Positions 1,289 through 45,231 of a stretch of 64,000 nt of DNA are shown one piece after another. The translations under genes and the position numbers were made by a program. Source of the stretch: Candidatus Aminicenantes bacterium (lineage in GTDB: Bacteria; Acidobacteriota; Aminicenantia; UBA2199); NCBI GenBank assembly GCA_011049425.1, contig DSBM01000141.1, positions 62,969 through 126,968 of the forward strand. The letters run 5' to 3'. A model generated the notes under the pieces. The model saw only the letters and a program-made list of their open reading frames with translations. It was not told the DNA's origin and did not search any database. Within the stretch, counting starts at the first letter, position 1. Each line of letters begins with the position of its first letter.

Positions 1289-2604
1289 AACGCATCCCCA
1301 TCATCACCATTATCGGTGTTCCCAATACAGGGAAATCGACCCTGTTCAATCGCTTGACCGGCCGCCGCAAAGCCCTGGTTCATCCGGAACCCGGTATGAC
1401 GCGGGACGTGTTTCGCATGCCGATGTTCTTGGATGAACGGCCGGTTTTCCTTCAGGATTCCGGCGGGTTTTTCCCCGATAAGTCCGATATATCTAAAGAA
1501 ATAAACATCCGGGTGTTGCGCGAAGCGGAACGCTCCGATGTGGTTGTTTTTTTGTGCGATGGCAAGCGGGATATCCTCGGATATGAAAAGGATTTTTACC
1601 TTTCCGTGCGCAGCCGTGCACAATCACTTATTCTGGTCGTAAACAAAGTGGATGACCCGGAACGCCATGTCGTTCCCCAATCGTATTATGAATTAAAGAC
1701 CGATGTGCTGGCGATCTCCGCTGAACACGATCTGGGAATCAATCAGCTCCGTTTTCTTCTTGGCGAAAAAATAGGTGAATCCGTCACCAAGCCCACAACA
1801 GAACCGGGCAACGCCTCGCGCATCAGTATAGTGGGCAAACCCAATGTGGGCAAATCTTCGCTGATCAACAGCATCCTTAGGGATGACTTGTTGATTGTAA
1901 GCCCGATTCCCGGAACCACACGCGATTCAATTGACCTGGCCCTCAGCCGCAACAATCGAGACATGATCCTGGTAGATAATGCCGGGATTCGCAAAATGCA
2001 AAAAATTCACGAAGACACGGAGAGTATCGCCGTACTCCGTGCGCAGAAAGATATCCATAGCGCGGATATCATTATCCTGGTTATCGATGCTTCGCGCAAA
2101 ATCAGTCAAAATGATTTGTTTATCGCCGACCAGGTGTTGAAATCAGCCAAACCGGTCATCCTGGCCGCCAATAAGTGGGACCTGGTATCGGCCTCACAGG
2201 CCCCGCATTTACTCGAACAATCGATTCGTCAACGCCTGCACGCATTTTATTTCGCTCCTTTTCATCTGGTATCCGCCTTAAATGGGAAAAATGTTTTCCG
2301 CTTGCTGGACAATGCGGAACGAATTCACATGGTACTTCAAGAGGGGGTTCGCACACCGGTCCTGAACCGCGCCATTAACTCAGCCTACGCGGAAAAACGC
2401 CTGGTGACAAAAAGCGGAAAGGCATTCAAATCGAAATACGCGACCATAGAATCCAGACGGCCATTCTTTATTCGCCTGCAGTCTCGTTATTCCGAGCACC
2501 TGAAACCTTCGGATGAAACCTTTCTCAAAAAGCGTATTACAGAAAAGCTTGATTTATGGGGCATTCCCATCTTTGTCAAAGTCACGGCATCCGCGCGGAA
2601 CTGA
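1285..2604 (+). CDS. der: Ribosome-biogenesis GTPase Der/EngA (tandem GTPase domains + KH-like C-terminus)
   Basis: Two G domains (GVPNTGKSTLFN; GKPNVGKSSLIN, DNAGIRK) and a C-terminal KH-like domain. 4-nt overlap with ispF. Confidence 0.9.
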   Translation: MKRIPIITIIGVPNTGKSTLFNRLTGRRKALVHPEPGMTRDVFRMPMFLDERPVFLQDSGGFFPDKSDISKEINIRVLREAERSDVVVFLCDGKRDILGYEKDFYLSVRSRAQSLILVVNKVDDPERHVVPQSYYELKTDVLAISAEHDLGINQLRFLLGEKIGESVTKPTTEPGNASRISIVGKPNVGKSSLINSILRDDLLIVSPIPGTTRDSIDLALSRNNRDMILVDNAGIRKMQKIHEDTESIAVLRAQKDIHSADIIILVIDASRKISQNDLFIADQVLKSAKPVILAANKWDLVSASQAPHLLEQSIRQRLHAFYFAPFHLVSALNGKNVFRLLDNAERIHMVLQEGVRTPVLNRAINSAYAEKRLVTKSGKAFKSKYATIESRRPFFIRLQSRYSEHLKPSDETFLKKRITEKLDLWGIPIFVKVTASARN

Positions 2605-2678
2605 GCATTGTCGACGCGTCGACATCTCTGTTGCAAAGGCATGTTCGACCGCATGCGCCGCCCAGCTTTATGTTTTCC

Positions 2679-2707
2679 TTGACATCGATTTCACCATAAA
2701 GTAGGAT
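2679..2707 (+). promoter_or_regulatory. Candidate sigma70 promoter for parAB (TTGACA-17 bp-TAGGAT)
   Basis: TTGACA at 2679-2684, a 17-bp spacer, TAGGAT at 2702-2707, about 12-70 nt upstream of the possible parA starts. Confidence 0.3.
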
Positions 2708-2718
2708 GCATTCAAGCG

Positions 2719-3531
2719 TTGGGAAACCATAGGAAACAAACCCTAAAACGCCATGACGGGAATCAGGAGAACAGCGTGATCATTACCATTGCCAACCAGA
2801 AAGGCGGGGTGGGGAAGACCACCACTGCAGTAAACCTCGCGGCTGCATTTGCCTTGGCCGGAAGACGCGCCCTACTCATTGATATGGACCCGCAGGCCAA
2901 CTCCACAGTGTCTTTTCTGGACTCGCGTGACATCGAGCTGAGCGTATTTCATTACCTGGAAGACATCGATACCGCGTTTGAGGATGTGGTTCAATCCACG
3001 TCAATTGAAAACCTTGATCTGCTTCCCGCTTCCATCTCCCTGGCCAAACTTGAATCCAAAATGATCGGCGAAATTGATGGCCATTTCCGCCTGAAAGATC
3101 GCCTGGATGCCGTGTTTCCTCGATATGACTATGTCTTGATCGATACGCCGCCAACCCTCGGATTGATCACCATCAACAGTTTAGTGGCGGCTACCCACTT
3201 ACTCATCCCCATTCAGGCATCCTATTTTGCTTTAGAAGGCACGGATGATCTGTTGGATACTTTTGAAAAAGTCCAAGCGCGCAGCAATCCGGAATTAGCC
3301 ATTCTGGGTGTCCTCATCACCCTGTATGATCGACGCATCGTAATCGCACGTGACAGCGCGGCACACATCCGGGGGATCTTTAAGGATCGCATGTTCAAAA
3401 CCGTGATTTCACGCAATGTGAGGTTGGAAGAGAGCCCGGCATTTAAAGAATCCATATTCACCCACGCTCCGAATTCTCGCGGGGCAGGGGAGTACAAAAA
3501 CCTGGCAAGGGAGATTATGAAACATGGCTAA
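2719..3531 (+). CDS. parA: Chromosome-partitioning ATPase ParA/Soj
   Basis: Deviant Walker A (NQKGGVGKTTTAVNLAAA) and ParA-family core. The true start may be the GTG at about 2776 (VIITIANQKGG). Confidence 0.85.
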   Translation: MGNHRKQTLKRHDGNQENSVIITIANQKGGVGKTTTAVNLAAAFALAGRRALLIDMDPQANSTVSFLDSRDIELSVFHYLEDIDTAFEDVVQSTSIENLDLLPASISLAKLESKMIGEIDGHFRLKDRLDAVFPRYDYVLIDTPPTLGLITINSLVAATHLLIPIQASYFALEGTDDLLDTFEKVQARSNPELAILGVLITLYDRRIVIARDSAAHIRGIFKDRMFKTVISRNVRLEESPAFKESIFTHAPNSRGAGEYKNLAREIMKHG

Positions 3532-4387
3532 AAAGATCGGCTTGCCTGAATCCATCAAGTTGAAACATGATCATCACCTGGTAGACGAGCTTTCAAGTCG
3601 CAGCCGCACCTGCGTGATCCGCTATATTTCGCTGGAACGGATCGTGGCCGGCGCGCAGCAGCCGCGCAGTGATTTTGGTGACATCGAAGCGCTGGCGGCT
3701 TCGATCCGCGAAAAAGGCGTTATTGAACCCATAATTTTGCGTTCAAGGGATGGTCGATTCGAAATCATTGCCGGAGAGAGACGCTACCGCGCGGCCAGAT
3801 TGGCCGGTTTAACTGAAATTCCCGGAATTGAATACGACATTCAGGACAATGAAGCTTTGGAACTGTCCATTGTGGAAAATGCCCAGAGAAAAGACTTGAA
3901 CCCGTTTGAATTGGCATTTTCTCTAAAGTCCCTGAACGAGATATATGGATACACCCACGAAGAAATCGCCAAAAAAGTCGGCAACTCAAGGGTATCCATC
4001 ACGGAAATGATACGCCTCAGTGACATGCCGCCCCAGGTAGTCAGCCGTTGCCAGGAAATGGGTATCGAGTCTAAGTCATTCCTGCTTGAACTGGTAAAGC
4101 TGGAAAATATCGAGCAGATGATGCATGTACTGGATCAATATGCAAAATCGCCGTTTTCCAGGGATGCCGTCAAGGAAATCCGCCGGCGCAAAACGCCGGA
4201 GGGCAAAGAAAAGGGCCGGCCCGCTGCCGCAAAAGCGCAGAGTTTCAAGTTTGTGGCGCCCGACAAATCCCTGAAAATCGATTTCCGTTTTCGCGAAGGT
4301 GAGATCAACCGCGAGCGCCTTATTGACGTATTGCAGACACTGCTTGAGGATCTGCAGAGCGGGCGGATCAAGGGCATCAATACCTGA
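3524..4387 (+). CDS. parB: Chromosome-partitioning protein ParB/Spo0J
   Basis: ParB box (IIAGERRYRAARLAGLTEIP) and HTH. 8-nt overlap with parA. Confidence 0.85.
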   Translation: MAKKIGLPESIKLKHDHHLVDELSSRSRTCVIRYISLERIVAGAQQPRSDFGDIEALAASIREKGVIEPIILRSRDGRFEIIAGERRYRAARLAGLTEIPGIEYDIQDNEALELSIVENAQRKDLNPFELAFSLKSLNEIYGYTHEEIAKKVGNSRVSITEMIRLSDMPPQVVSRCQEMGIESKSFLLELVKLENIEQMMHVLDQYAKSPFSRDAVKEIRRRKTPEGKEKGRPAAAKAQSFKFVAPDKSLKIDFRFREGEINRERLIDVLQTLLEDLQSGRIKGINT

Positions 4388-5113: not shown

Positions 5114-5989
5114 CTATGTGTTTCGGCCCAATGACTCGCTCAAATTCTTTAGTCCCTGGTCCATTTTTTCCTGGAAAATCCGCCAGGTGGATGCCTGGTT
5201 GCACTTGCCGCTGCGGATGTTGACATCGAATACGGAAAAATCCATGACCAGGTTGTTGCGGGCCACCTCAAAACGCTGGTACATTCCGGTCAGGAAGCGT
5301 TCAATAATGGGTTTGCGCTTCATGCCGATCACCGAATTGAGAGATCCGGTCATGCCCACATCGGTTTGATACCCGGTGCCGTTGCTGAGAATGCGCACGT
5401 CACTGGTTTGCACGTGGGTATGGGTGCCCACCATGACACTCACCCGCCCATCCAGAAAAAAGCCCATGGCTTGTTTTTCCGCCGTGGCTTCGGCGTGAAA
5501 ATCCACGAAAACGCATTTCTCGGGGTCTTCTTTCAAGAGGCGATCCACAATCAGAAAGGGATTGTCGACCACGGGTTCCATGAAAACCCGCCCCTGCAGG
5601 TTGATTACGCGCAGTTTGGCTCCATTTGCCAGATTCGCCTTATAGCAGCCATTTCCGGGAACACTTGGTGGATAGTTCATCGGCCTCAGGATGCGGGGAT
5701 TTTCGCGCAGCAATTCAACGGCTTCACGCTTGTCCCATACGTGGTTTCCCGAAGTGATCAGGTCCACGCCGGCCTGGAACAACTCTACGGCTGTTTTGGG
5801 AATGATACCTAAGCCTCCGGCACTGTTTTCGCCGTTGGCAATCACAAAATCAGGGCGAATGCGATAACGCACTTTGGGCAGCACATCAGCCAGGAATCTC
5901 CTGGCCCCGCGTCCCACCACATCCCCGATAAACACCACGCGCAGGTCTGGGGATTCGCTACTTGTATTTTTCCTATTTGGCATATTCAA
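5114..5989 (-). CDS. ymdB: YmdB-family metallophosphoesterase (2',3'-cyclic-nucleotide phosphodiesterase, TIGR00282-like)
   Basis: VVFIGDVVGRGAR...GNHVWD...HAEATAEK...GTHTHVQTSD calcineurin-like motifs. Lies downstream of rny, as in Bacillus. Confidence 0.85.
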   Translation of the reverse strand: MNMPNRKNTSSESPDLRVVFIGDVVGRGARRFLADVLPKVRYRIRPDFVIANGENSAGGLGIIPKTAVELFQAGVDLITSGNHVWDKREAVELLRENPRILRPMNYPPSVPGNGCYKANLANGAKLRVINLQGRVFMEPVVDNPFLIVDRLLKEDPEKCVFVDFHAEATAEKQAMGFFLDGRVSVMVGTHTHVQTSDVRILSNGTGYQTDVGMTGSLNSVIGMKRKPIIERFLTGMYQRFEVARNNLVMDFSVFDVNIRSGKCNQASTWRIFQEKMDQGLKNLSESLGRNT

Positions 5990-7535
5990 CTGCTCGGACT
6001 TCTCGTATCACCGTGACCTTGATCTGGCCGGGGTATTCCAATTCCTCCTGGATGCGTTTGGCAATATCTTTGGACACGAAAAACACCTTGTTATCGTTCA
6101 TTTCATTGGAATCCACGATAACCCGGACTTCCCGGCCGGCCCGCAGCGCGTAGGCTTTTTCCACACCCTCAAAACCGGCGCACACTTCCTCCAGTTTTTC
6201 CAGGCGCTTGATATAGGTTTCAAAGATCTCTCTCCTGGCGCCTGGCCGGGCTGCGGACATGGTATCCGCCGCCTGGATCAACACACCCTCAACCGCGGTA
6301 AAATCCACGTCCATGTGGTGAGAAGCAATGGCCTCCTGCACCTGTTTGGACTCGCCGAACTTGCGGGCCAGGTCGACCGACAACTGGGTATGGGTGCCTT
6401 CAGTTTCGCGGTCAATGGATTTGCCCACATCGTGCAGCAGTCCGGCGCGGCGGGCGACGTTTACATTCGCCCCCAGTTCCCGTGCCATAAACGCCGCGAT
6501 CAGGGCCACCTCTTGGGAATGCTGCAGGGCATTCTGGCCATATGAAGTACGGAACTTCAGTTTCCCCAGGTAGTAGTACAACTCCGGGTTTATGTCCTTG
6601 ATTCCCAATTCCACGACGGTCTGCTCGCCGACTTCGCGGAGAAAGTCATCGAATCCCGTTTCGATCTTTTCCACGATCTCTTCCACGCGCGCGGGATGAA
6701 TCCTGCCGTCCTGGATCAGTGTTTCCAAAGCCCGCTTGGCAATTTCGCGACGAATGGGGTCGAAAGAAGAAACGATAATCGCTTCCGGGGTATCATCTAC
6801 AATGAAGTCAACACCGGTCGCGTTTTCCAGGGCGCGGATATTGCGCCCTTCCCTACCGATAATCCGCCCTTTCATCTCGTCATTGGGAAGATCGATTACC
6901 GCTACGGACGAAGAAACCACGTGCTCGGAAGCCAGCCGCTGGATGGCCGTGCCGATAATGTCCTTGGCCATGACCTGGCTTTTTTCTTTTAAATCCTCTT
7001 CAATGGCCCGCAATCGCTGAGCGGATTCCATGCGGGCTTCGCTTTCGTATTGGCTGACGATCAACTCTTTGGCTTCCTGAACGGTCAAGCCGGAAATAGT
7101 TTCCAACTTTTTGCGCTGTTCTTCAAGCGTGTTTTCCAATTCGCGGCGCGCCAGGTCCAGTTGTTGCCCACGCTCCCCCAGTTGGACTTCAACTTTTTTC
7201 AGGTCTTTTTCCTTGTTTTCCAGGTTGATGTAGCGATGGTCCAGATTCTCTTCCTTCTGTACCAGGCGACGCTCCGTTTCATTGATTTTGTTTATTTTCT
7301 GGCTCTGTTTGCGATTGTATTCGTTTTTCCAGTTGATAAACTCTTCTTTCAGTTCAAGATTGGTTTTCGTGCGCTGGGCGGCCAACTCCTGGTCAGCCTG
7401 ACGTTTCCATTCCTGTTGCTGCTGCTCAAGCCTCCGGTATTGTCCGGAAAACAGCTTCTTGCGCAACAGGAAAACCACTACAGCGGTCAAAGCGATTCCG
7501 CCCAGGAACGGAACCATATATGTAAGTATCGACAT
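5973..7535 (-). CDS. rny: Ribonuclease Y (N-terminal TM, coiled coil, KH and HD domains)
   Basis: N-terminal TM helix, long coiled coil, KH (GREGRNIRALENATGVDFIVDD) and HD domain (HSQEVALIAAF...LLHDVGK). Confidence 0.9.
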   Translation of the reverse strand: MSILTYMVPFLGGIALTAVVVFLLRKKLFSGQYRRLEQQQQEWKRQADQELAAQRTKTNLELKEEFINWKNEYNRKQSQKINKINETERRLVQKEENLDHRYINLENKEKDLKKVEVQLGERGQQLDLARRELENTLEEQRKKLETISGLTVQEAKELIVSQYESEARMESAQRLRAIEEDLKEKSQVMAKDIIGTAIQRLASEHVVSSSVAVIDLPNDEMKGRIIGREGRNIRALENATGVDFIVDDTPEAIIVSSFDPIRREIAKRALETLIQDGRIHPARVEEIVEKIETGFDDFLREVGEQTVVELGIKDINPELYYYLGKLKFRTSYGQNALQHSQEVALIAAFMARELGANVNVARRAGLLHDVGKSIDRETEGTHTQLSVDLARKFGESKQVQEAIASHHMDVDFTAVEGVLIQAADTMSAARPGARREIFETYIKRLEKLEEVCAGFEGVEKAYALRAGREVRVIVDSNEMNDNKVFFVSKDIAKRIQEELEYPGQIKVTVIREVRAVEYAK

Positions 7536-15268: not shown

Positions 15269-16522
15269 CTAGCCCTCCTTTGCGGTCAATCTTCCTTTCA
15301 TCACCGACCAAGCCACAACTTCGGGAGAAGTCAGGTAGTTGAATCCGTCACCCTGTTTACCCGGGAAATTGCGGTTGCCGGTGGACAGCATGACCTCATT
15401 GCGCCCGGTCATACCGATATGACCCTGGGCGCAGCCGCCGCATCCCGGATTGGATATGATCGCGCCGGCATCAAACAGGTCATTCAACATGCCCCGGTCC
15501 ATGGCCGCTTTGTAAACCCGTTGCGTGCTCGGCACAATCGCCAGTCGCGTTCCCGGGGCGATTTTGCGCCCTTTCAGAATTTTCCAGGCGGCCTCGATAT
15601 CGCTGAGCCGCCCATTGGTGCAGGATCCGATAAACCCAAAATCCACTTTGACGTCGCTCAGCTCCGAAACCTTGCAAACATTGTGTGGAACCGGCGGTGC
15701 CGCCACCATGGCTTCAATATCAGAGACATCGACAACAATCTCTTCATCATATGTCGCGTCGGGGTCGGCACGAACTTCACCGGGACAATCCCCCATCCCG
15801 TTCATGGCCGGAATCTGATCCATGGTGTGGTTGTTAAAGGGAATAAAGCCCACGATTCCACCCATTTCCGTGATCATGCTTAACAAGGTGATGCGACCAG
15901 GCAGATCCAGTTTCTCTACAGCCTCGCCCACGAATTCAACCGCGCAACCCAACACGCGGTCGGTTTTCAGTTCGCCCAATATCCACAGCGCCAGGTCTTT
16001 ACCGTTGATTGGTACTCGGGGCTTTCCCTGTATGCGAACCAATCTGGTGCGGGGGACTTCAAACCAGGTGCGCCCCCTGCGGAACCCAAAGGCGATATCC
16101 ACATCCCCCATCCCCTGGCCGAAACAGTTCACGGCTCCGAGAATGTTCATGTGGCTGTCCGTACCCACCACAATTGTACCCGGCAGGGCGATTCCCTCTT
16201 CCATCATGGTATGGGTACCGATGCCGCGCTCCACGTCAAAAACGCGGATTCCCTGCTCCCGGGCGAATTCCCTGCAGATCTGCTGGTTATTCGCATACTG
16301 GATGGTTTTGGGCGGAACCGTCAAGTCAAAAGTAAACAACACCCGCTCCCGGTCCACCACCGGGGCATCTCCATAGTGACTTCGGTAGTTTTTGACCACA
16401 TTCGGCCCGGCAAAATCCCGGGCGGAAATCACGTCCAGGTCGATCCAGACAATCTTTCCCGGCGCTACCTCTTCCTGGGTATGCCGAGCAAAAATCTTTT
16501 CAATAACCGTTTTTCCGCTCAT
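15269..16522 (-). CDS. leuC: Aconitase-family dehydratase large subunit (LeuC-like, 3-isopropylmalate/homoaconitate dehydratase type)
   Basis: 417 aa, GTDSHMNILGA...GSCTNGRLSD...NPGCGGCAQGH Fe-S ligand motifs. 4-nt overlaps with mglA upstream and leuD downstream. Confidence 0.75.
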   Translation of the reverse strand: MSGKTVIEKIFARHTQEEVAPGKIVWIDLDVISARDFAGPNVVKNYRSHYGDAPVVDRERVLFTFDLTVPPKTIQYANNQQICREFAREQGIRVFDVERGIGTHTMMEEGIALPGTIVVGTDSHMNILGAVNCFGQGMGDVDIAFGFRRGRTWFEVPRTRLVRIQGKPRVPINGKDLALWILGELKTDRVLGCAVEFVGEAVEKLDLPGRITLLSMITEMGGIVGFIPFNNHTMDQIPAMNGMGDCPGEVRADPDATYDEEIVVDVSDIEAMVAAPPVPHNVCKVSELSDVKVDFGFIGSCTNGRLSDIEAAWKILKGRKIAPGTRLAIVPSTQRVYKAAMDRGMLNDLFDAGAIISNPGCGGCAQGHIGMTGRNEVMLSTGNRNFPGKQGDGFNYLTSPEVVAWSVMKGRLTAKEG

Positions 16523-17109
16523 TGCAGTTTCCTTTTCACATCGATCATAACCAACCTGGAGATCTGTTTCAGGGTATCGATCACCCCATCTCCCTTTGTG
16601 GCGACGGCTTCCGTTACGGGTTCCCCTTTTTTGCGCAACACCGGAATCAACTCATCGGCTGGAGTGATATTGGGCAAGTCCCGTTTATTCAGTTGCAATA
16701 CATAAGGCATCTGGTCGAAATTCAATTTGTATTCACGCAGGTTTTCCATCATGTCCTCAAGGCTCTCGATGTTGGCTTCAAAACGCTCGCGCTGTGAATC
16801 AGCCACAAACACCAGTCCGTCCACACCCTTGAGAATCAGCTTTCGGGAGCTGCTGTAATAGATTTGTCCCGGCACGGTATACAGATGGAATTTGACCTTG
16901 TAGCCTTTGATTTGACCAAGATCCAGGGGAAAAAAATCAAAAAACAGGGTTCGCTCGGTTTCAGTGGCCAAGCTGACCAGCTTGCCTTTGTTATCACTCT
17001 TGATTTTCTCGTATATGTATTTGATGTTGGTGGTTTTTCCACTGAGCCCCGGCCCGTAGTAGACGATCTTAAAGTTGATCTCGCGAGTGGAATAGTTTAA
17101 AAATGACAA
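16519..17109 (-). CDS. mglA: Ras-like small GTPase MglA (motility/polarity regulator)
   Basis: Very close to Myxococcus MglA (MSFLNYSTREINFKIVYYGPGLSGKTTN...LYTVPGQ...VFVADSQ). Confidence 0.85.
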   Translation of the reverse strand: MSFLNYSTREINFKIVYYGPGLSGKTTNIKYIYEKIKSDNKGKLVSLATETERTLFFDFFPLDLGQIKGYKVKFHLYTVPGQIYYSSSRKLILKGVDGLVFVADSQRERFEANIESLEDMMENLREYKLNFDQMPYVLQLNKRDLPNITPADELIPVLRKKGEPVTEAVATKGDGVIDTLKQISRLVMIDVKRKLQ

Positions 17110-17111
17110 TA

Positions 17112-17600
17112 TCAGTCTCCAAATATCTCGTCAATGTCTGCGTCCGTAACCCCTTCAAAGGGAGAAATATCATCTTTGAAAACGTTTGACTTCAATTTTT
17201 GATTAATGGTTTGAAATACTCCGGCCAGCTCCGACGTGGCGTTTTTCACCCGGAAACGTACCAGGCCCAGGTTGGATTCCCTGCGAAAGATGTTGATCAA
17301 CATGGTGCGTTCATTGATCAGTGACACGTAGAGGCTCTTGGTATCGGATTCAGTCAACACACTGGTGAATTTGTCGATCTGCAGCATCTGGGCGATACTG
17401 TTGACGGCCGATATGCTACCGGCGATCAACGAAGAGATGGAATTCAAATAGGAGTCATCCAGATCGCCGGTGGAGGCGATGCAGTGGCCCTCGGAATCGG
17501 TAATAAAAACGATCTCTGACCCCGAATTTTCTTTGAGCTCATCAAGGATCTTTTTGATCAACACATATTCTTCGTTGTATATGACAAAGTTTTCCTGCAT
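17112..17600 (-). CDS. mglB: Roadblock/LC7-domain protein MglB (GAP for MglA)
   Basis: 162 aa Roadblock/LC7 fold protein immediately upstream of mglA with a 3-nt spacing. Confidence 0.75.
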   Translation of the reverse strand: MQENFVIYNEEYVLIKKILDELKENSGSEIVFITDSEGHCIASTGDLDDSYLNSISSLIAGSISAVNSIAQMLQIDKFTSVLTESDTKSLYVSLINERTMLINIFRRESNLGLVRFRVKNATSELAGVFQTINQKLKSNVFKDDISPFEGVTDADIDEIFGD

Positions 17601-38346: not shown

Positions 38347-39159
38347 CTATGCCCACACAAAACGCGCCAGCGCGTACAGGGCCGGGGCACAAAAGATATA
38401 GCTGTCCACCCGATCCAGTACACCCCCATGACCGGGAAGGATGGATCCGGAGTCCTTGCGTCCCGCCGCGCGTTTAAAAAGTGATTCCACGGGGTCGGAC
38501 AACTGGGAAAGCAATCCCAGAATGGCCGCGCTCCATATCGCGGTGGACTGGGCAACCGGCAAGGGAAAAATGGCCAGAACGGGAATTGCCGCGGCGGCGG
38601 CGAATAAAACGGCGGCGATCAGTCCCTGCAGGGATTTTTTTGGTGATGCCACGGGATAGATGGGAATCCTTTTGCCGTACCGGGCCCAAAGGCTGCCCAC
38701 GAAATAGGCAAAGGAGTCGCCGACCGCGATAACGGCCAACAGAAAGAAAAGGTAGTTGGGACCGAGTTGTTTTAACCGCAAGAGATAATACAGCGGGATA
38801 AAAAGATAAAACACCACCCCGGTATGGATCGCAAAATCGCGAACAAACGAGGCCAACTGCTCTGTGCGGCGGATGCGCACTAAAAAATAGGCTCCGAAAA
38901 GAAACACCAGTAGACAAATGGTATCGGCAAGTTCAGGTGTTTTAAACGTAAAGCTGGACGCCACCAGCAGGGCAGCCGTACCCGTGACGGCGAAATGGTG
39001 CATGACGGGCCGGCATAAGCGCACCCACTCCAATGCGGCCGCTCCGATCAACAGGAAAAGCACAATGGAAAATGCCAACTCGGAGGAAAAGCGGATCCAG
39101 ACATAGGCCAACAGAATCAAGACCAGTGCGGTCAGGTTGCGCGCGGCAAATTCCTTCAT
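38347..39159 (-). CDS. cdsA: Phosphatidate cytidylyltransferase
   Basis: C-terminal CdsA signature (PGHGGVLDRVDS). Start set at the ATG at 39159 with a GGAGG RBS, overlapping the uppS stop (ATATGA). Confidence 0.85.
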   Translation of the reverse strand: MKEFAARNLTALVLILLAYVWIRFSSELAFSIVLFLLIGAAALEWVRLCRPVMHHFAVTGTAALLVASSFTFKTPELADTICLLVFLFGAYFLVRIRRTEQLASFVRDFAIHTGVVFYLFIPLYYLLRLKQLGPNYLFFLLAVIAVGDSFAYFVGSLWARYGKRIPIYPVASPKKSLQGLIAAVLFAAAAAIPVLAIFPLPVAQSTAIWSAAILGLLSQLSDPVESLFKRAAGRKDSGSILPGHGGVLDRVDSYIFCAPALYALARFVWA

Positions 39160-39914
39160 ATGCCTCCAAAACGGCGTTGCCGTGATTGAAATTCCGTTAA
39201 TGAACGCAATAAGGGGCCCATTAGGAAGTCGGGCCACAATTCGCGCGCAAAAATCAATTCCGCGTACGCTGACTGGTAAACCAGAAAATTGGACAACCGC
39301 TGTTCACCTGATGTGCGAATCACGAGGTCCGGATCGGGGTCATTCTGGGTGTAAAGATACTGTCTCAAAGTCTCATCACTGACGCTCTCGGCATTCACTC
39401 CCGCTTTTATCATGGAGCGTACAGCTTGGAGTATTTCCTGGCGGCCGCCGTAATTGATGGCCAGGTTGACAGTCATGTCAGTGAAATCACGTGACATTTC
39501 TTCTGTTTCTTTTATTTTGCGACCCAACCTGGCCGGCAGGCGTGTCGGTTCTCCGATCATGCGCATGCGGATACGATGCCGCTTCAACAGTTCGGCTTTC
39601 TGTTCAAGGTTCTCGTACAACATGTTCATCAGGGCGTTGATCTCGCGTGGGGGGCGCTTCCAGTTTTCACTTGAGAAAGTGTAAAGCGTCAGTATGGGGA
39701 TGGACATGCGTGCGCATGCCTCTACGATCAGCCGCGCGGTCGCGGCACCCTTGCGGTGGCCCTCCAGCCTGCTCAAACCCCGGCTTTGGGCCCAGCGGCC
39801 GTTGCCGTCCATAATAATGGCCACATGTTTGGGCATGCGTTTGGGATCCAGCCCCTGCAGCAACTTTTCCTCTTGTGATCGGGGTTGAACGAGATCCGCC
39901 ATATCAACCAGCAT
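39156..39914 (-). CDS. uppS: Isoprenyl transferase (undecaprenyl-diphosphate synthase)
   Basis: HVAIIMDGNGRWA and the cis-IPPS core. Start approximate; the ORF extends to 39965. Confidence 0.85.
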   Translation of the reverse strand: MLVDMADLVQPRSQEEKLLQGLDPKRMPKHVAIIMDGNGRWAQSRGLSRLEGHRKGAATARLIVEACARMSIPILTLYTFSSENWKRPPREINALMNMLYENLEQKAELLKRHRIRMRMIGEPTRLPARLGRKIKETEEMSRDFTDMTVNLAINYGGRQEILQAVRSMIKAGVNAESVSDETLRQYLYTQNDPDPDLVIRTSGEQRLSNFLVYQSAYAELIFARELWPDFLMGPLLRSLTEFQSRQRRFGGI

Positions 39915-40053
39915 GGGGCTGATTATAGGGGCAAGCCGGGGGGATGTCAATCTGAGACCCGGCAACCACCCGGTCCGCCGGGGCTGTTGACAATAACTCT
40001 CGCCTTCATATAGAATAACCTTCTCTACAGGCGGGATTTGGCCGAGGTTTAAA

Positions 40054-40806
40054 ATGGAAGGTTTTAAACAGTTTGTTTACAGTTACTCTAAAGGCGACAT
40101 CATCTTTACCGAAGGGGATGAGCAGAACCACTTCTACATCATCAACTCGGGCCGGGTTCAGTTGAAACTCAACCGCAACAACCTGATCCTCATTTCCCTG
40201 GGCAAAGGAGACTTTTTCGGTGAAGAAAGCCTGAACGACGGCCAGGAAGCCATGTTTACCGTTGAGGTCATGGAAGATGCTTCCATAATAAGGATCCCCT
40301 ACTCCGCCCTGGTGGAGATGATGAAGAAAAGCCGGGAGATCTCACTGAAAATCGTGAAAAAACTTTCCGAGAAAAACCTTAAGATTCTGGAATACCTGTT
40401 TCAGATGAAAGGACAAGACATCACCAGTGACGAACAACCCGCCTCAGAATCGCTTGAAGAGGACAATCAGGACCTGCTGGATCCGGCCATCCAGGCATAC
40501 CTGGTGATTCAACGTTCCAACCGGGTGGTGCAACTCACGCATAAGACCACCTTTCTCGGGCGCCGCGACTACACCAGCGGCTTTACACCCGATATCGACC
40601 TGACCAAGGAAGATGAGGAAAAATACATCTCCCGCAAACACGCCAAGATCCAGTTCACCAACGATCGGTTCTACATTTCAGAGGAGCCCGGTGCCATTAA
40701 CGGCACGTTTATCAACGGGGAAAAAATGAAGACCGGGGTTAAGTACGAACTCAACAACGAAGATGAACTTACCCTCTGCCACCTGAGTTGTGTGTTTAAG
40801 GCCTGA
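40054..40806 (+). CDS. Cyclic-nucleotide-binding (CAP effector) domain fused to a C-terminal FHA domain
   Basis: N-terminal cNMP-binding beta-barrel (GDIIFTEGDEQNHFYIINSGRV...GKGDFFGEESL), an acidic linker, then FHA (GRRDY..., SRKHAKI, AINGTFINGEKM). Confidence 0.7.
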   Translation: MEGFKQFVYSYSKGDIIFTEGDEQNHFYIINSGRVQLKLNRNNLILISLGKGDFFGEESLNDGQEAMFTVEVMEDASIIRIPYSALVEMMKKSREISLKIVKKLSEKNLKILEYLFQMKGQDITSDEQPASESLEEDNQDLLDPAIQAYLVIQRSNRVVQLTHKTTFLGRRDYTSGFTPDIDLTKEDEEKYISRKHAKIQFTNDRFYISEEPGAINGTFINGEKMKTGVKYELNNEDELTLCHLSCVFKA

Positions 40807-41785: not shown

Positions 41786-41992
41786 ATGAAGAAAGAAATT
41801 CATCCCGAATATATGGAATGTACCGTCACCTGTGCTTGTGGCAATACCTTCAAGACCCGGGCCACGGTCAAAGGGATCGAAGTGGAAATCTGTTCCAGTT
41901 GTCATCCCTTCTATACGGGCAAGCAGAAATACGTGGATACAGAAGGCCGTATCGAGAAGTTCAAGAAAAAGTATGGCTACAAGGAGCAATGA
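41786..41992 (+). CDS. rpmE: 50S ribosomal protein L31 (zinc-binding type)
   Basis: MKKEIHPEY...CxC...[12 protein letters not shown]. Confidence 0.9.
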
Positions 41993-43097
41993 CACCCTTC
42001 TCTCTTGTCTGCACAACCTTTACGAAAAAGCGCAAGCCCTGACGCAGCGCCTGGCGGAAATGGATGTAACCTCCAATTCCGAAAATTTCCGCAACCTCTC
42101 ACGCGAGTTATCCCGGATCAAACCCGTAAGCGATCTGTACCTGGATCTGCGCCGCTATGATAAAGAGCGTTCCGAAGCCCTTGAAATGGCGAAAATCGAG
42201 GATGACCCGGAGATGGCTTTACTGGCACGTAATGAAGTGGACGGACTGGATGAAAAAATCTCGGAACTCACAATCATGGTCCGCCGCTTGCTGGTTCGGG
42301 ACGCGGCCGCGGATCACCGCAATGTCTATCTGGAGATTCGCGCCGGCACCGGGGGTGATGAGGCCTCCCTCTTTGCCGCGGATCTGTTGCGCATGTACCA
42401 CCGTGTGGCGGAACGCCGCCACTGGAAGGCCGATGTCATCTCCACCACCTACTCCTCCATCGGCGGCATCAAGGAAGTGATTCTGCACTTGCGTGGTAAT
42501 GACGTATACGGTCAACTCAAGTTCGAAAGCGGGGTACACCGCGTACAACGGGTTCCGGCAACCGAATCCAGCGGACGCATCCACACATCAACCGCCACCG
42601 TGGCCGTGCTGCCTGAAGTGCGCGATGTGGAAGTCACCCTTAATCCCGCGGATGTCCGCATTGACACGTACCGGGCTTCCGGAAGCGGAGGACAACACGT
42701 CAACAAAACCGAATCCGCCATCCGCGTCACCCATTTTCCCTCGGGAATCGTGGTCACCTGCCAGGACGAGTCTTCCCAGCACAAAAATCGTGACAAGGCC
42801 CTGGCCGTACTCAAATCCCGCCTGTACGAAGAGGAGATGCGCCAACAGGAAGAGGGGATTGCTCTGGATCGTCGCGCACAGGTGGGTTCCGGTGAACGTT
42901 CCGAAAAGATCCGCACCTACAATTTTCCCCAGAACCGTGCCACGGATCACCGCATTTCCGGGCGAAACTTCAACCTGGAAAGCGTCCTGGACGGCAACAT
43001 CAGCGACCTTCTGGCCGCACTGGCCGGCCGCCATGAAGAGCGGGTCCTGCAACAGCGATTCCGCGAACTCTCCGCACCGTGCGCTACGGAGAACTGA
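41973..43097 (+). CDS. prfA: Peptide chain release factor 1
   Basis: RF1 motifs (PAT tripeptide, [18 protein letters not shown]). Start placed at the ATG at 41973, overlapping the rpmE stop. The ORF-track start at 41832 is an in-frame upstream extension across rpmE. Confidence 0.9.
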
Positions 43098-43906
43098 TTG
43101 CCGATGCCCTGTTGAAAGGGAGTCAGGCGGGAATCAAGCCACTCGATGCTGAGCTCCTGCTTTGCGACGCCTTTGCAATTTCCCGCGGCCGCTACTGGAC
43201 AATCCGCCCGGATGAGATCACGGATAAGCAAGGTCAGAAACGCTTTTCCAGGAATCTGCGGCGGCTTTTACGGGGTGAGCCGCTTTACTATATCCTCAAG
43301 AAACGCGAGTTCTTCTCACGCAGTTTCTGCGTGGATCGCCGCGTGCTGGTTCCGCGACCGGAAACGGAAACCCTGGTTGAGCAGGCCCTGGCCCGCATCC
43401 GTCCCAAAGACACTATTCTCGATATCGGCGCCGGTTCCGGTTGTGTTTCAATCACCCTGGCATTGGAAGCGGATGTCCGGGTGACCGCCCTGGAGATTGA
43501 CCGGCGCGCCCGGCGCCTGTTGCAATGTAACCTTGATCGATTCAGGGTTGAAACGCGGGTCCGTGTCTGTGGGGGAAACCTTTTCCCCCGCCACGGCGGA
43601 CCCTGGCGGATGATTGTGGCCAACCCGCCTTACTTGAGTAGTCAGGAATACCACGCCCTGCCAAAACATATCCGTGGGTTTGAACCGCGGAGGGCCCTGG
43701 TTGGCGGTCATGAAGGCACGGAAATCCTGCATCGTATCATACACGGCTCCCATTCCAGAATCCATCCCGGCGGATGGCTGCTGCTGGAAACCGGATACAA
43801 CCAGGCGCGAGGCATCGCGCAGGAGATGAAGGCACGGGGCTTCCACGACATTCAGATCATCCCGGACCTTGCCGGCATTGAACGCGTGGTGATGGGGCGG
43901 CATTGA
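43079..43906 (+). CDS. prmC: Release factor glutamine N5-methyltransferase PrmC/HemK
   Basis: SAM-binding (LDIGAGSGC) and NPPY motif (VANPPYL). Confidence 0.85.
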   Translation: MRYGELIADALLKGSQAGIKPLDAELLLCDAFAISRGRYWTIRPDEITDKQGQKRFSRNLRRLLRGEPLYYILKKREFFSRSFCVDRRVLVPRPETETLVEQALARIRPKDTILDIGAGSGCVSITLALEADVRVTALEIDRRARRLLQCNLDRFRVETRVRVCGGNLFPRHGGPWRMIVANPPYLSSQEYHALPKHIRGFEPRRALVGGHEGTEILHRIIHGSHSRIHPGGWLLLETGYNQARGIAQEMKARGFHDIQIIPDLAGIERVVMGRH

Positions 43907-45231
43907 ACGTTCTTTTTCTGACTCCCTATATCACCGATTTCTCGGCTTATGATCTCTGGCTTCGCCCGCTCGGGCTCATGCAACTGGCGGCTGTGGTTAA
44001 ATCACGTACCAGTTGCCGCGTATTCTGGCTCAATCCCCTGGACCGCTACGCCGGTCTCGAGAATCTTTACGACCCGGATGACGGTCGCGGTCATTTTTAC
44101 CGCTCCCCTATTGCCAAACCGCAATGTTTTCAGTCCATCCCCCGCTTTTTCGCGCGCTACGGCTGGCCGCTGACTGTTTTTGACGCATACCTGGAAACCC
44201 TCCCGCCAATGGACATGATCTGCATGACCACACTCATGACCTATTGGGTGGACGGGGCGAGCTTCACCCTGGACAGGCTGCGCCGGCATTCCCCGGATGC
44301 GGTTACGGTCGTGGGGGGCATCCTGCCTACGCTGATGCCGGCTGCAAGCAAGCGCGAAATCAGGGCCGATTATTATATCTCCGGCCCTGGAGAAAACTTG
44401 CTGCTCAAGCTTATTCAGCGCATCGGCGGGCGCAAATTATTTAAACCCCGACCATCCCGCATCCGCATTGAAGATTTCCTCTCTGCTGCTGATCCCGCCT
44501 ATCCCTTGCTGACTTCACGGGGATGTCCCATGCAGTGCAGTTATTGCGCATCCCGCTTGCTGAATCCTGAATTCAGTGAACGCCCGGTATCCGCGGTCAT
44601 TCGCGAAGTCCGTAGCGCTCGTCGGTCTCGCCGCCATTTCGTTTTTTTTGATGACGCCTTACTGATCAACAAAGAAAGCCGATTTCTGCCACTGGCCCGG
44701 GCCGCGGCGGAGATGAATTTGTGTCTGCATACACCCAACGGCCTGCATGTGCGCGAAATCGATTCCGTTAGCGCCCATGCCCTGCGCAATGCAGGCACCC
44801 GCACCCTGCGCCTGAGCCTGGAAACCACTTCATGCGACATCCACGTCCGGGATTCCAACAAGGCGGACGCAGATACCATGCGCCGGGCCGTTGATCACCT
44901 GCTGGAAGCCGGTTTCTCTGCCGCAGAGATGGAAACCTACGTATTGTGGGGTTTGCCGGGACAATCGCTCGATTCCGTGCACGCCACCCTGGATTTCGTG
45001 GAAAACCTGGGCATCATCCCCCGCCTGGCGGATTACTCGCCTGTTCCGGGGACCCCGGATTGCATCCGCCTGCAAGATTCCGGGCGCCTGGGCAGATCCC
45101 TGGATCCCCGCCATACCAACAAGCTCTTTCACCTGCTGCAAACCAGCGGCTACTCCGGCAGCGATATCCGGGCGGTGCGCACCCGCTGCAGAGGGATCAT
45201 TTCCAGAGTTCGCAATTGCCGTTCCTGTTGA
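43903..45231 (+). CDS. B12-binding-domain radical SAM protein
   Basis: N-terminal cobalamin-binding Rossmann-like region, CxxxCxxC cluster (SRGCPMQCSYCAS). A TTG start overlaps the prmC stop (TTGA). Confidence 0.7.
   Translation: MNVLFLTPYITDFSAYDLWLRPLGLMQLAAVVKSRTSCRVFWLNPLDRYAGLENLYDPDDGRGHFYRSPIAKPQCFQSIPRFFARYGWPLTVFDAYLETLPPMDMICMTTLMTYWVDGASFTLDRLRRHSPDAVTVVGGILPTLMPAASKREIRADYYISGPGENLLLKLIQRIGGRKLFKPRPSRIRIEDFLSAADPAYPLLTSRGCPMQCSYCASRLLNPEFSERPVSAVIREVRSARRSRRHFVFFDDALLINKESRFLPLARAAAEMNLCLHTPNGLHVREIDSVSAHALRNAGTRTLRLSLETTSCDIHVRDSNKADADTMRRAVDHLLEAGFSAAEMETYVLWGLPGQSLDSVHATLDFVENLGIIPRLADYSPVPGTPDCIRLQDSGRLGRSLDPRHTNKLFHLLQTSGYSGSDIRAVRTRCRGIISRVRNCRSC

What the first reader, a model, noticed from the sequence alone, without database searches (positions are those of the whole stretch)
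40054..40806. Single-polypeptide cNMP-binding domain fused to an FHA phosphothreonine-recognition domain
The N-terminal 120 aa form a CAP-family cyclic-nucleotide-binding barrel. The C-terminal 100 aa carry the FHA signature (GR...SRKH...NG). An acidic linker joins the two. There is no output (HTH or enzymatic) domain, so the protein could bridge cyclic-nucleotide signalling and Ser/Thr-kinase signalling. It sits as a lone gene between uppS and ispD, convergent with ispD.
Basis: partly seen in the sequence, partly recalled or inferred. Interest (0 to 1): 0.5.

Follow-up and report, generated by a model that had tools for sequence, protein, structure and literature searches.

The report
CRP-like sensor fused to phosphothreonine reader
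This gene really does encode a small signalling protein joining a cyclic-nucleotide-type sensor domain to a phosphothreonine-reading FHA domain, but in this bacterial lineage (Aminicenantes) the sensor has lost the arginine that normally grips cAMP/cGMP, so it probably senses something else or nothing.

Summary
ORF 40054-40806 (+) encodes 250 aa with a Pfam cNMP_binding domain (E=5e-19) and an FHA domain (E=2.7e-11), joined by a disordered acidic linker. There is no HTH or enzymatic domain. The gene has its own promoter-like site between uppS and ispD.

The FHA GR/SRxH/NG residues are invariant in 121/121 close homologues. The phosphate-binding-cassette arginine (CRP R82) is Ala66 in 120/121 and Gly in 1. 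About 90% of more distant full-length CNB-FHA proteins keep FGE...PR[ST]A, including sister Acidobacteriota sequences with a cassette of identical length.

The protein belongs to a large, uncharacterised family with thousands of metagenomic clusters. In this lineage it is more conserved than uppS, dxr or RF1, and dN/dS is 0.038. A conserved near-consensus promoter travels with the gene. No operon partner is conserved. Hanks kinases occur in related genomes, but none lies in this window.

Best reading: a CRP-like, probably dimeric chassis in which an FHA domain replaces the HTH, acting as a phospho-dependent adaptor. Its sensor pocket has been retuned away from cyclic nucleotides. It is a new variant of a known kind, of moderate interest.

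The parts
39987..40016 (+). sigma-70-like promoter (TTGACA-18-TAGAAT, 11/12) for the CNB-FHA gene
   Evidence: The same TTGACAAA...TAnAAT element lies 35-80 nt upstream of the gene in at least 47 of 65 related loci, whatever the neighbouring genes are. This is a consensus match and the function is not shown.
40044..40047 (+). GAGG ribosome-binding site, 6 nt before the ATG
   Evidence: Read directly from the sequence.
40054..40806 (+). CDS of the 250-aa CNB-FHA protein (stop included)
   Evidence: It is identical to a protein that NCBI names 'cyclic nucleotide-binding domain-containing protein [Candidatus Aminicenantes]'.
40075..40299 (+). CNB beta-barrel (residues 8-82)
   Evidence: Pfam PF00027, AF2 strands, and a Foldseek best match to cAMP-bound CRP/Vfr with about 125 aligned columns at rmsd 2-3.5 A.
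40207..40269 (+). Degenerate phosphate-binding cassette (residues 52-72, GDFFGEESLNDGQEAMFTVEV). Gly56-Glu57 are kept and Ala66 (codon 40249-40251) replaces the canonical Arg.
40300..40410 (+). Hinge and long C-helix (residues 83-119), the counterpart of the CRP dimerisation helix
   Evidence: AF2 helices at 83-92 and 94-119. Foldseek alignments to CRP extend through this helix. Dimerisation is inferred, not shown.
40411..40473 (+). Acidic, variable, disordered linker (residues 120-140)
   Evidence: pLDDT below 50 for residues 120-138. It is the least conserved region, with mean column conservation 0.40.
40474..40800 (+). FHA domain (residues 141-249; Pfam core 168-241) with invariant G169 R170 S193 R194 H196 N216 G217 and a family-specific lengthened beta3-beta4 / beta4-beta5 loop region (RDYTSGFTPDIDLTKEDEEKY)

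Best explanation
The gene encodes a stand-alone signalling adaptor built on a CRP-like chassis. It has a cyclic-nucleotide-binding-fold barrel and a long C-helix, which is probably the dimer interface as in CRP. A flexible acidic tether follows, and an FHA domain sits where CRP carries its DNA-binding domain. The FHA domain keeps every residue needed to read phosphothreonine. The output is therefore docking onto one or more proteins phosphorylated by the lineage's Hanks-type kinases, and a dimer would make that docking bivalent. In the wider family the barrel has a canonical cAMP/cGMP site. In the Aminicenantes clade that includes this window, the phosphate-clamping Arg has been replaced by Ala. 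An invariant extra Glu (E58) sits in the cassette, and the ribose-contacting Gly-Glu and the rest of the cassette remain almost invariant. I therefore think the sensor is still functional but has been retuned away from cyclic nucleotides, towards an uncharged or otherwise different ligand or an internal contact. What is shown: the architecture, the residue states, the conservation, the lack of a conserved operon partner and the own promoter-like site. What is inferred: dimerisation, phosphothreonine binding, loss of cNMP binding and retention of some ligand.
For: Both domains score above Pfam's curated cut-offs. The N-terminal half superposes on cAMP-CRP, Vfr and MtbCRP, including the C-helix. 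No HTH is present. FHA residues G169, R170, S193, R194, H196, N216 and G217 are invariant in 121/121 close members and at least 90% conserved in distant relatives. A66 aligns to the PBC Arg in two independent alignments and is Ala in 120/121. Sister Acidobacteriota proteins of the same cassette length keep 'IPRTAS', as do 90 of 101 distant full-length representatives. The PBC is nevertheless the most conserved part of the CNB half in the clade (0.84 against 0.67 for the rest of the barrel), which argues for a retained function at that site. Literature supports the role of the Arg: CBDs lacking it do not respond to cAMP, and the encapsulin CBD with Arg replaced by Trp does not bind cAMP (PMC11550324). 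Trypanosomatid PKAR, with the Arg replaced and an added Glu, binds nucleosides instead of cAMP (PMC10959531). The protein is more conserved than uppS, cdsA, dxr, rseP, ispD, prfA and prmC in every syntenic genome, and dN/dS is 0.038. Pkinase-domain proteins are confirmed in related genomes, and one lies directly downstream of the orthologue in L008.
Against: There is no binding data of any kind. No partner, kinase, phosphatase or cyclase is linked to the gene in this window, and none is conserved across orthologues. AF2 gives no confident inter-domain geometry (pTM 0.45), so the coupling between sensor and FHA is conjecture. The lengthened beta3-beta4 loop makes the placement of R170 at the pThr site an assumption; a pairwise alignment to GarA placed GarA's GR opposite G176-F177 instead. 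A cNMP site lacking the Arg might still bind weakly. High conservation of the PBC could reflect a structural or protein-contact role rather than a ligand.
Confidence: 0.5

Rival explanations
1. The protein is a genuine cAMP/cGMP receptor, and cyclic-nucleotide binding controls FHA docking onto phosphoproteins, directly bridging the two signalling systems.
For: The cNMP_binding HMM hit is strong. The FGE motif with the ribose-contacting Gly-Glu is kept. The best structural matches are cAMP-bound CRP proteins. The bulk of the wider CNB-FHA family has a fully canonical PBC, so this is probably the ancestral function.
Against: The PBC Arg is Ala in 120/121 clade members, and no conserved basic residue is present elsewhere in the cassette. 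An invariant extra Glu (E58) adds negative charge. Published Arg-less CBDs do not respond to cAMP (PMC11550324, PMC10959531). No class III cyclase motif was found in about 1.06 Mb of related DNA, but that was only a single-motif regex scan whose one hit proved to be PanB, so it is very weak evidence.
Confidence: 0.17
2. The CNB domain is now a ligand-free structural module that serves only for dimerisation or scaffolding. The protein is then a constitutive bivalent FHA adaptor, regulated solely by the phosphorylation state of its targets.
For: The key ligand-binding Arg is lost. Neighbouring lineages have lost the FGE motif altogether (P0124, P0134, P0136), which suggests relaxed ligand constraint around this clade. 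The FHA half is the most conserved region (0.85). The N-terminal helix of the CNB fold is minimal.
Against: Within the clade the PBC is nearly invariant (F54, F55, G56, E57 at 121/121; E58, S59, Q64, A66 at 97% or more). It is more conserved than the rest of the barrel, which is unexpected for a dead pocket. The replacement residues are fixed rather than drifting.
Confidence: 0.23
3. The protein is a GarA/OdhI-type regulator. The FHA domain binds and inhibits metabolic enzymes directly, and is switched off when a Thr in the protein's own linker is phosphorylated and folds back onto the FHA domain. The CNB domain adds a second input.
For: The closest solved FHA sequences are GarA and OdhI (E=7e-5 to 3e-3; NCBIfam OdhI E=1.4e-7). 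The protein is small and stand-alone like GarA. A TS[DE] motif sits 10 residues before the FHA domain in 54/110 homologues against 4.3 expected by shuffling, and the window protein carries 'ITSDE' in its linker. One orthologue lies directly upstream of glnA.
Against: The NCBIfam OdhI score is 31.5 against a cut-off of 200. There is no N-terminal ETTS-type extension. The linker motif is not universal and its enrichment is confounded by shared ancestry. No linkage to 2-oxoglutarate or glutamate enzymes is conserved.
Confidence: 0.1

Closest known systems
CRP/FNR-family regulators (E. coli CRP, P. aeruginosa Vfr, M. tuberculosis CRP)
   Same: The CNB beta-barrel and long C-helix are shared, and these proteins are the best structural matches (Foldseek E about 3e-8, 125-128 aligned columns). 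The Gly-Glu of the PBC is kept.
   Different: There is no helix-turn-helix; an FHA domain on a disordered acidic tether replaces it. The PBC Arg (R82) is Ala and the N-terminal helix is truncated.
Canonical CNB-FHA two-domain proteins of other Acidobacteriota and uncultured bacteria (e.g. L064-L066, P0125; generic names only)
   Same: Same length (about 250-270 aa), same domain order and the same lengthened FHA loops 'GR.D..TG..PDIDLT..D...VSRRH'. Identity is 34-37%.
   Different: They keep the canonical 'FFGEMA.LE..PR[ST]A' cassette, whereas the window's clade has 'FFGEESLN..Q.A.YT'. The library searches found no paper describing a CNB-FHA two-domain protein, so none appears to be experimentally characterised.
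GarA (Rv1827) / OdhI stand-alone FHA regulators of actinobacteria
   Same: Small FHA proteins without an enzymatic domain. They are the closest solved FHA sequences, and SRRH and NGT align.
   Different: They have no CNB domain. GarA/OdhI carry an N-terminal ETTS phospho-acceptor tail that is absent here. The NCBIfam equivalog score is far below its cut-off.
Trypanosomatid PKA regulatory subunit CNB domains (nucleoside-binding 'ribose-binding cassette')
   Same: A CNB fold in which the PBC Arg is replaced, the Gly-Glu ribose contact is kept and an extra cassette Glu is present (PMC10959531).
   Different: In TbPKAR the added Glu is at the PKA A202 position. Here the added Glu (E58) is one residue earlier and the A202 position is Ser59. 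The proteins have no common origin and the capping residues were not compared. This is an analogy only.
Family 2B encapsulin CBD insertion (S. griseus EshA/Enc)
   Same: A bacterial CNB-fold domain that scores with cNMP_binding models but lacks the PBC Arg, and was shown experimentally not to bind cAMP (PMC11550324). NCBIfam encap_f2b gives a weak hit, E=7.8e-7.
   Different: The context is an encapsulin shell and the Arg is replaced by Trp, not Ala. There is no FHA domain.

Membership tests
Pfam cNMP_binding (PF00027) fold family | HMM score above the gathering threshold; eight-stranded barrel followed by B/C helices | tested here: met
   68.5 bits against 27.5. AF2 shows a barrel at 8-82 plus helices at 83-119. 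Foldseek matches CRP.
Functional cAMP/cGMP receptors (PKA-R, CRP, Epac, CNG type) | PBC Gly-Glu that binds the ribose 2'-OH | tested here: met
   G56-E57 are invariant in 121/121 and align to CRP G71-E72.
Functional cAMP/cGMP receptors (PKA-R, CRP, Epac, CNG type) | PBC Arg (CRP R82 / PKA R209) followed by [ST]-A, which clamps the cyclic phosphate | tested here: not met
   Ala66 aligns to this position. It is Ala in 120/121 and Gly in 1/121. The following residues are A/V/I/M then Y/F, not [ST]-A.
Functional cAMP/cGMP receptors (PKA-R, CRP, Epac, CNG type) | Measured binding of cAMP or cGMP | not testable with these tools
   This requires ITC, DSF or equilibrium dialysis on purified protein.
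CRP/FNR transcription factors | C-terminal helix-turn-helix DNA-binding domain | tested here: not met
   No HTH_Crp_2, Crp or any other HTH family at E<=0.1. NCBIfam CRP scores 35.9 against a cut-off of 266.
FHA domain (PF00498) | HMM score above the gathering threshold | tested here: met
   44.2 bits against 20.7.
FHA domain (PF00498) | Conserved pThr-contact residues: Gly-Arg (beta3/4 loop), Ser-x-x-His (beta4/5 loop), Asn-Gly (beta6/7 loop) | tested here: met
   G169, R170, S193, R194, H196, N216 and G217 are invariant in 121/121 and at least 90% conserved in distant relatives. Caveat: the beta3-beta4 loop is lengthened, so the placement of R170 at the site is assumed.
FHA domain (PF00498) | Binding of phosphothreonine peptides | not testable with these tools
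   This requires a phosphopeptide library or pull-down.
GarA/OdhI (NCBIfam NF041660) | Equivalog score above the cut-off; N-terminal ETTS phospho-acceptor segment | tested here: not met
   31.5 bits against 200. The N-terminus is a CNB domain, and the linker TS[DE] motif is only partly conserved.
T6SS TagH/Fha (TIGR03354) | Score above the cut-off; T6SS gene neighbourhood | tested here: not met
   39.7 bits against 120.25. No T6SS genes appear in the window gene tables.
Nucleoside-binding CNB (trypanosomatid PKAR type) | Arg replaced and a Glu at the PKA A202 position that contacts ribose 3'/5'-OH | tested here: inconclusive
   The Arg is replaced. The A202-equivalent position is Ser59, and the invariant extra Glu is at the adjacent position 58 (PMC10959531). 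No coordinates were available to check side-chain orientation.

The most novel reading that the evidence does not exclude
The Aminicenantes CNB-FHA protein is a core, class-wide regulator whose CNB pocket has been re-specified for a non-cyclic-nucleotide ligand, for example a nucleoside or another uncharged metabolite, in parallel with trypanosomatid PKA. Ligand binding would gate bivalent FHA docking onto Thr-phosphorylated targets. If so, it would be a bacterial metabolite-to-phosphoprotein adaptor and a natural, datable example of a ligand switch within one orthologous CNB family, from Arg-bearing sister clades to the Ala-bearing clade.
Probability: 0.25. Interest if true: 0.6.

Novelty: new variant of a known kind. 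Interest (0 to 1): 0.4.

Why it matters
CNB and FHA domains are each well understood, and their fusion is already catalogued under generic names. However, my library searches found no paper describing a CNB-FHA two-domain protein, so no member appears to have been studied. The family is large, and in Aminicenantes it is more conserved than release factor 1, which suggests a central role in an abundant, uncultured lineage. The clean Arg-to-Ala switch, within a cassette that otherwise keeps its length and stays nearly invariant, offers a tractable natural experiment. It could show how CNB domains change ligand specificity, and how small-molecule sensing can be coupled to Ser/Thr phospho-signalling without any DNA-binding or enzymatic output. 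It also cautions against reading 'cNMP_binding' HMM hits as evidence of cAMP/cGMP signalling.

Tried and rejected
1. Operon or neighbour inference. I clustered neighbours across 62 loci and ran Pfam on the recurrent ones. They are only housekeeping genes in lineage-specific arrangements: uppS/ispD, FAD-oxidase, birA/valS, RNR, GH20/glnA. The neighbours of Arg-bearing relatives were equally uninformative.
2. Regex scan of window ORFs for Hanks kinase, PP2C, class III cyclase, GGDEF/EAL and HD-GYP motifs. The only lead, 'HDVGK' at 5973-7535, is RNase Y.
3. The same scan over 1.06 Mb of loci. The kinase hits were confirmed. The PP2C-like 'ADG[LV]GG' hits tested in L024 and L042 had no Pfam support. 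The 'cyclase' hit in L010 is PanB.
4. Gene tables for window positions from about 8.5 kb to the 3' end show no kinase, phosphatase, cyclase or phosphodiesterase.
5. Foldseek against AFDB50, intended to find named organisms with this architecture, could not be run because the library is unavailable.
6. Literature searches for a characterised CNB-FHA protein found nothing relevant. A search for Aminicenantes signalling genomics was not informative.
7. The linker TS[DE] phospho-acceptor idea rests on a motif in only about half of the family, missing at that position in the window protein. I kept it only as a minor rival.
8. The dN/dS value against L006 is invalid because of an unaligned indel, and I discarded it.
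9. A possible correspondence between the conserved 'LSEK' of the C-helix and CRP 'TSEK' (T127/S128 base contacts) was considered. hhalign did not extend into the C-helix, so I make no claim.

Full report

Yes. The ORF listing gives an ATG-initiated ORF at 40054..40806 on the + strand, 250 aa. A GAGG sits 6 nt before the ATG. Pfam places cNMP_binding at residues 10-92 (E=5.1e-19, 68.5 bits against a 27.5 cut-off). It places FHA at residues 168-241 (E=2.7e-11, 44.2 bits against a 20.7 cut-off). No HTH or enzymatic family appears even at E<=0.1.

An AlphaFold2 model built on a 27-sequence alignment has mean pLDDT 78.8. It shows these elements:
- a beta-barrel at residues 8-82
- helices at 83-92 and 94-119
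- a beta-sandwich at 149-249

An identical protein is on record as 'cyclic nucleotide-binding domain-containing protein [Candidatus Aminicenantes bacterium]'. There are 277 homologues of about 250 aa carrying both domains. dN/dS against the 94%-identical orthologue in L005 is 0.038. This is a genuine gene under strong purifying selection.

**2. The FHA half looks fully functional.**

Across the query plus 120 homologues, G169, R170, S193, R194, H196, N216, G217 and T218 are invariant. In about 90 distant cluster representatives the same positions are at least 90% conserved. The closest solved sequences are GarA/Rv1827 and OdhI.

The segment between GR and SRxH is lengthened, reading 'RDYTSGFTPDIDLTKEDEEKY' here. 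This pattern, 'GR.D..TG..PDIDLT..D...VSR.H', is shared by the whole CNB-FHA family.

One caveat applies. Because of the longer loop, a pairwise alignment put GarA's GR opposite G176-F177. I take G169-R170 as the true GR because it follows strand beta3 in the model and is invariant family-wide. Only a structure would settle this.

**3. The sensor half is CRP-like but lacks the key arginine.**

Foldseek against the PDB returns cAMP-bound E. coli CRP, Vfr and MtbCRP as best matches. About 125 columns align at rmsd 2-3.5 A, and the alignment includes the long C-helix that forms the CRP dimer interface.

Two independent alignments place Ala66 opposite the phosphate-binding-cassette arginine:
- HMMER to Plasmodium PKG aligns 'FGEESLNDGQEAMFT' with 'FGEAALIHNTQRSAT'.
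- hhalign to E. coli CRP aligns 'GDFFGEESL-NDGQEAMFTVEV' with '[22 protein letters not shown]'.

Position 66 is Ala in 120 and Gly in 1 of 121 sequences. No other conserved basic residue occurs in the cassette. E58 is an added, near-invariant acidic residue.

The loss is lineage-specific. Proteins at 34-37% identity from other Acidobacteriota (L064-L066) carry 'FFGEMAVLEGIPRTAS' with the same cassette length. Of 101 full-length representatives from the all-against-all HMM search, 90 keep both the Glu and the Arg. The nearest outgroups are also degenerate: P0121 has Thr, while P0124, P0134 and P0136 have lost FGE.

Only four CNB positions are fixed in the clade and different in canonical relatives: Q24, F27, E58 and A66. 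The cassette is nevertheless the most conserved part of the CNB half (0.84 against 0.67 for the rest of the barrel).

Published work shows that this Arg neutralises and hydrogen-bonds the cyclic phosphate:
- Replacing it, together with an added cassette Glu, converts trypanosomatid PKA-R into a nucleoside sensor that ignores cAMP (PMC10959531).

**4. Genomic setting.**

The uppS/ispD location is incidental. In other genomes the orthologue sits beside an FAD-oxidase (21 loci), birA/valS (16 loci), RNR, or GH20/glnA. In the commonest recurrent arrangements the immediate upstream and downstream genes are on the opposite strand. Exceptions exist, for example glnA on the same strand downstream in L003.

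A near-consensus promoter-like site (TTGACA-18-TAGAAT) lies at 39987-40016. An equivalent 'TTGACAAA...TAnAAT' element accompanies the gene in at least 47 of 65 loci, whatever the neighbours are. The gene therefore looks like an autonomous, probably monocistronic unit with its own promoter.

In all genomes that share synteny, the protein is more conserved than uppS, cdsA, dxr, rseP, ispD, prfA and prmC. For example, in L020 it is 61% identical against 39-56% for the others.

The genome scan found 64 loci. By record title, 31 are Aminicenantes and 10 are Acidobacteria(ota). Fifteen carry the label 'uncultured Clostridia', which I take to be a submitter placeholder. The remaining few carry other labels. 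Those labels are the submitters' own.

No kinase, PP2C, cyclase or phosphodiesterase is present in the window by motif scan. None appears in the gene tables for positions from about 8.5 kb to the 3' end. Pkinase-domain proteins are confirmed in related genomes. One lies 210 bp downstream, on the same strand, of the orthologue in L008.

**5. Mechanism.**

My best reading has confidence of about 0.5. The protein is a CRP-type chassis in which the DNA-binding output has been replaced by a tethered phosphothreonine reader. The FHA domains of a probable dimer dock onto Thr-phosphorylated partners.

Ancestrally this docking was controlled by cAMP/cGMP binding in the barrel. In the Aminicenantes clade the pocket has been retuned away from cyclic nucleotides, yet it is still under strong constraint.

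The architecture, residue states, conservation and lack of a conserved operon partner are shown. Dimerisation, pThr binding, loss of cNMP binding and a replacement ligand are inferred.

The rivals are:
- a still-functional cNMP receptor (0.17)
- a ligand-free dimerisation scaffold (0.23)
- a GarA/OdhI-like direct enzyme regulator with a linker phospho-switch (0.10)

The last rival rests on a TS[DE] motif present in only about half the family.

**6. Comparison with known families and novelty.**

The protein is a member of the cNMP_binding and FHA fold families. It fails the defining Arg test for functional cNMP receptors and the HTH test for CRP/FNR regulators. It also fails the equivalog cut-offs for CRP, OdhI and TagH.

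The two-domain architecture itself is not rare. It has thousands of metagenomic clusters, including 2,743 at E<=1e-10 with the L065 protein, all with generic names. My library searches found no paper describing such a protein.

I rate it a new variant of a known kind. Interest is moderate, at 0.4. There is no striking new mechanism, but the sensor-pocket switch is clean and testable, in a protein that is exceptionally conserved across an uncultured lineage. It is also a useful warning about reading cNMP signalling from domain hits.

Noticed in passing
window 16519-17600 (-): Adjacent Roadblock/LC7 (MglB-like) and small Ras-like GTPase (Gtr1_RagA/Arf hits, MglA-like) genes, seen in the gene table of L069.
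   Followed up: no
window 39922-40016: Back-to-back divergent near-consensus sigma-70-like promoters. One is at 39950-39922 (-), 12/12, for uppS. The other is at 39987-40016 (+), 11/12, for the CNB-FHA gene. The + one is conserved with the gene across genomes, including an 'ATATCTT' spacer motif in many loci.
   Followed up: partly
L008 987-3745 (+): In this MAG (title 'Acidobacteria bacterium WY2.bin142'), a Hanks-type Ser/Thr kinase ORF (1940-3745, Pkinase E=8e-59) follows the CNB-FHA orthologue by 210 bp on the same strand. It is the only direct kinase adjacency seen.
   Followed up: partly
window 40420-40434 (residues 123-127) and linkers of homologues: A TS[DE] motif sits 10 residues before the FHA domain in 54 of 110 homologues, against 4.3 expected by shuffling; shared ancestry inflates this figure. 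The window protein lacks it at that position but has 'ITSDE' earlier in the linker. It may be a phospho-acceptor.
   Followed up: partly
L061 9938-10687: This family member lacks about 21 residues of the barrel immediately after the cassette ('...SEQNA' then 'DMLKQ...'). It may be a decaying copy or an assembly artefact.
   Followed up: no
L073 8001-10132 and L074 1690-3821: An Arg-bearing CNB-FHA relative (P0283) is followed two genes downstream by a second cNMP_binding protein (252 aa) on the same strand.
   Followed up: no
window 39156-39965 (-) and 41832-43097 (+): The mechanical ORFs over-extend uppS (TTG at 39965) and prfA (GTG at 41832, overlapping rpmE). The called genes start at 39863 and 41973. 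rpmE, prfA, prmC and a B12-binding radical-SAM gene form a tight same-strand run at 41786-45231.
   Followed up: partly
window 5973-7535 (-): An 'HDVGK' motif suggested an HD-GYP phosphodiesterase, but Pfam shows RNase Y (RNase_Y_N + KH + HD).
   Followed up: yes
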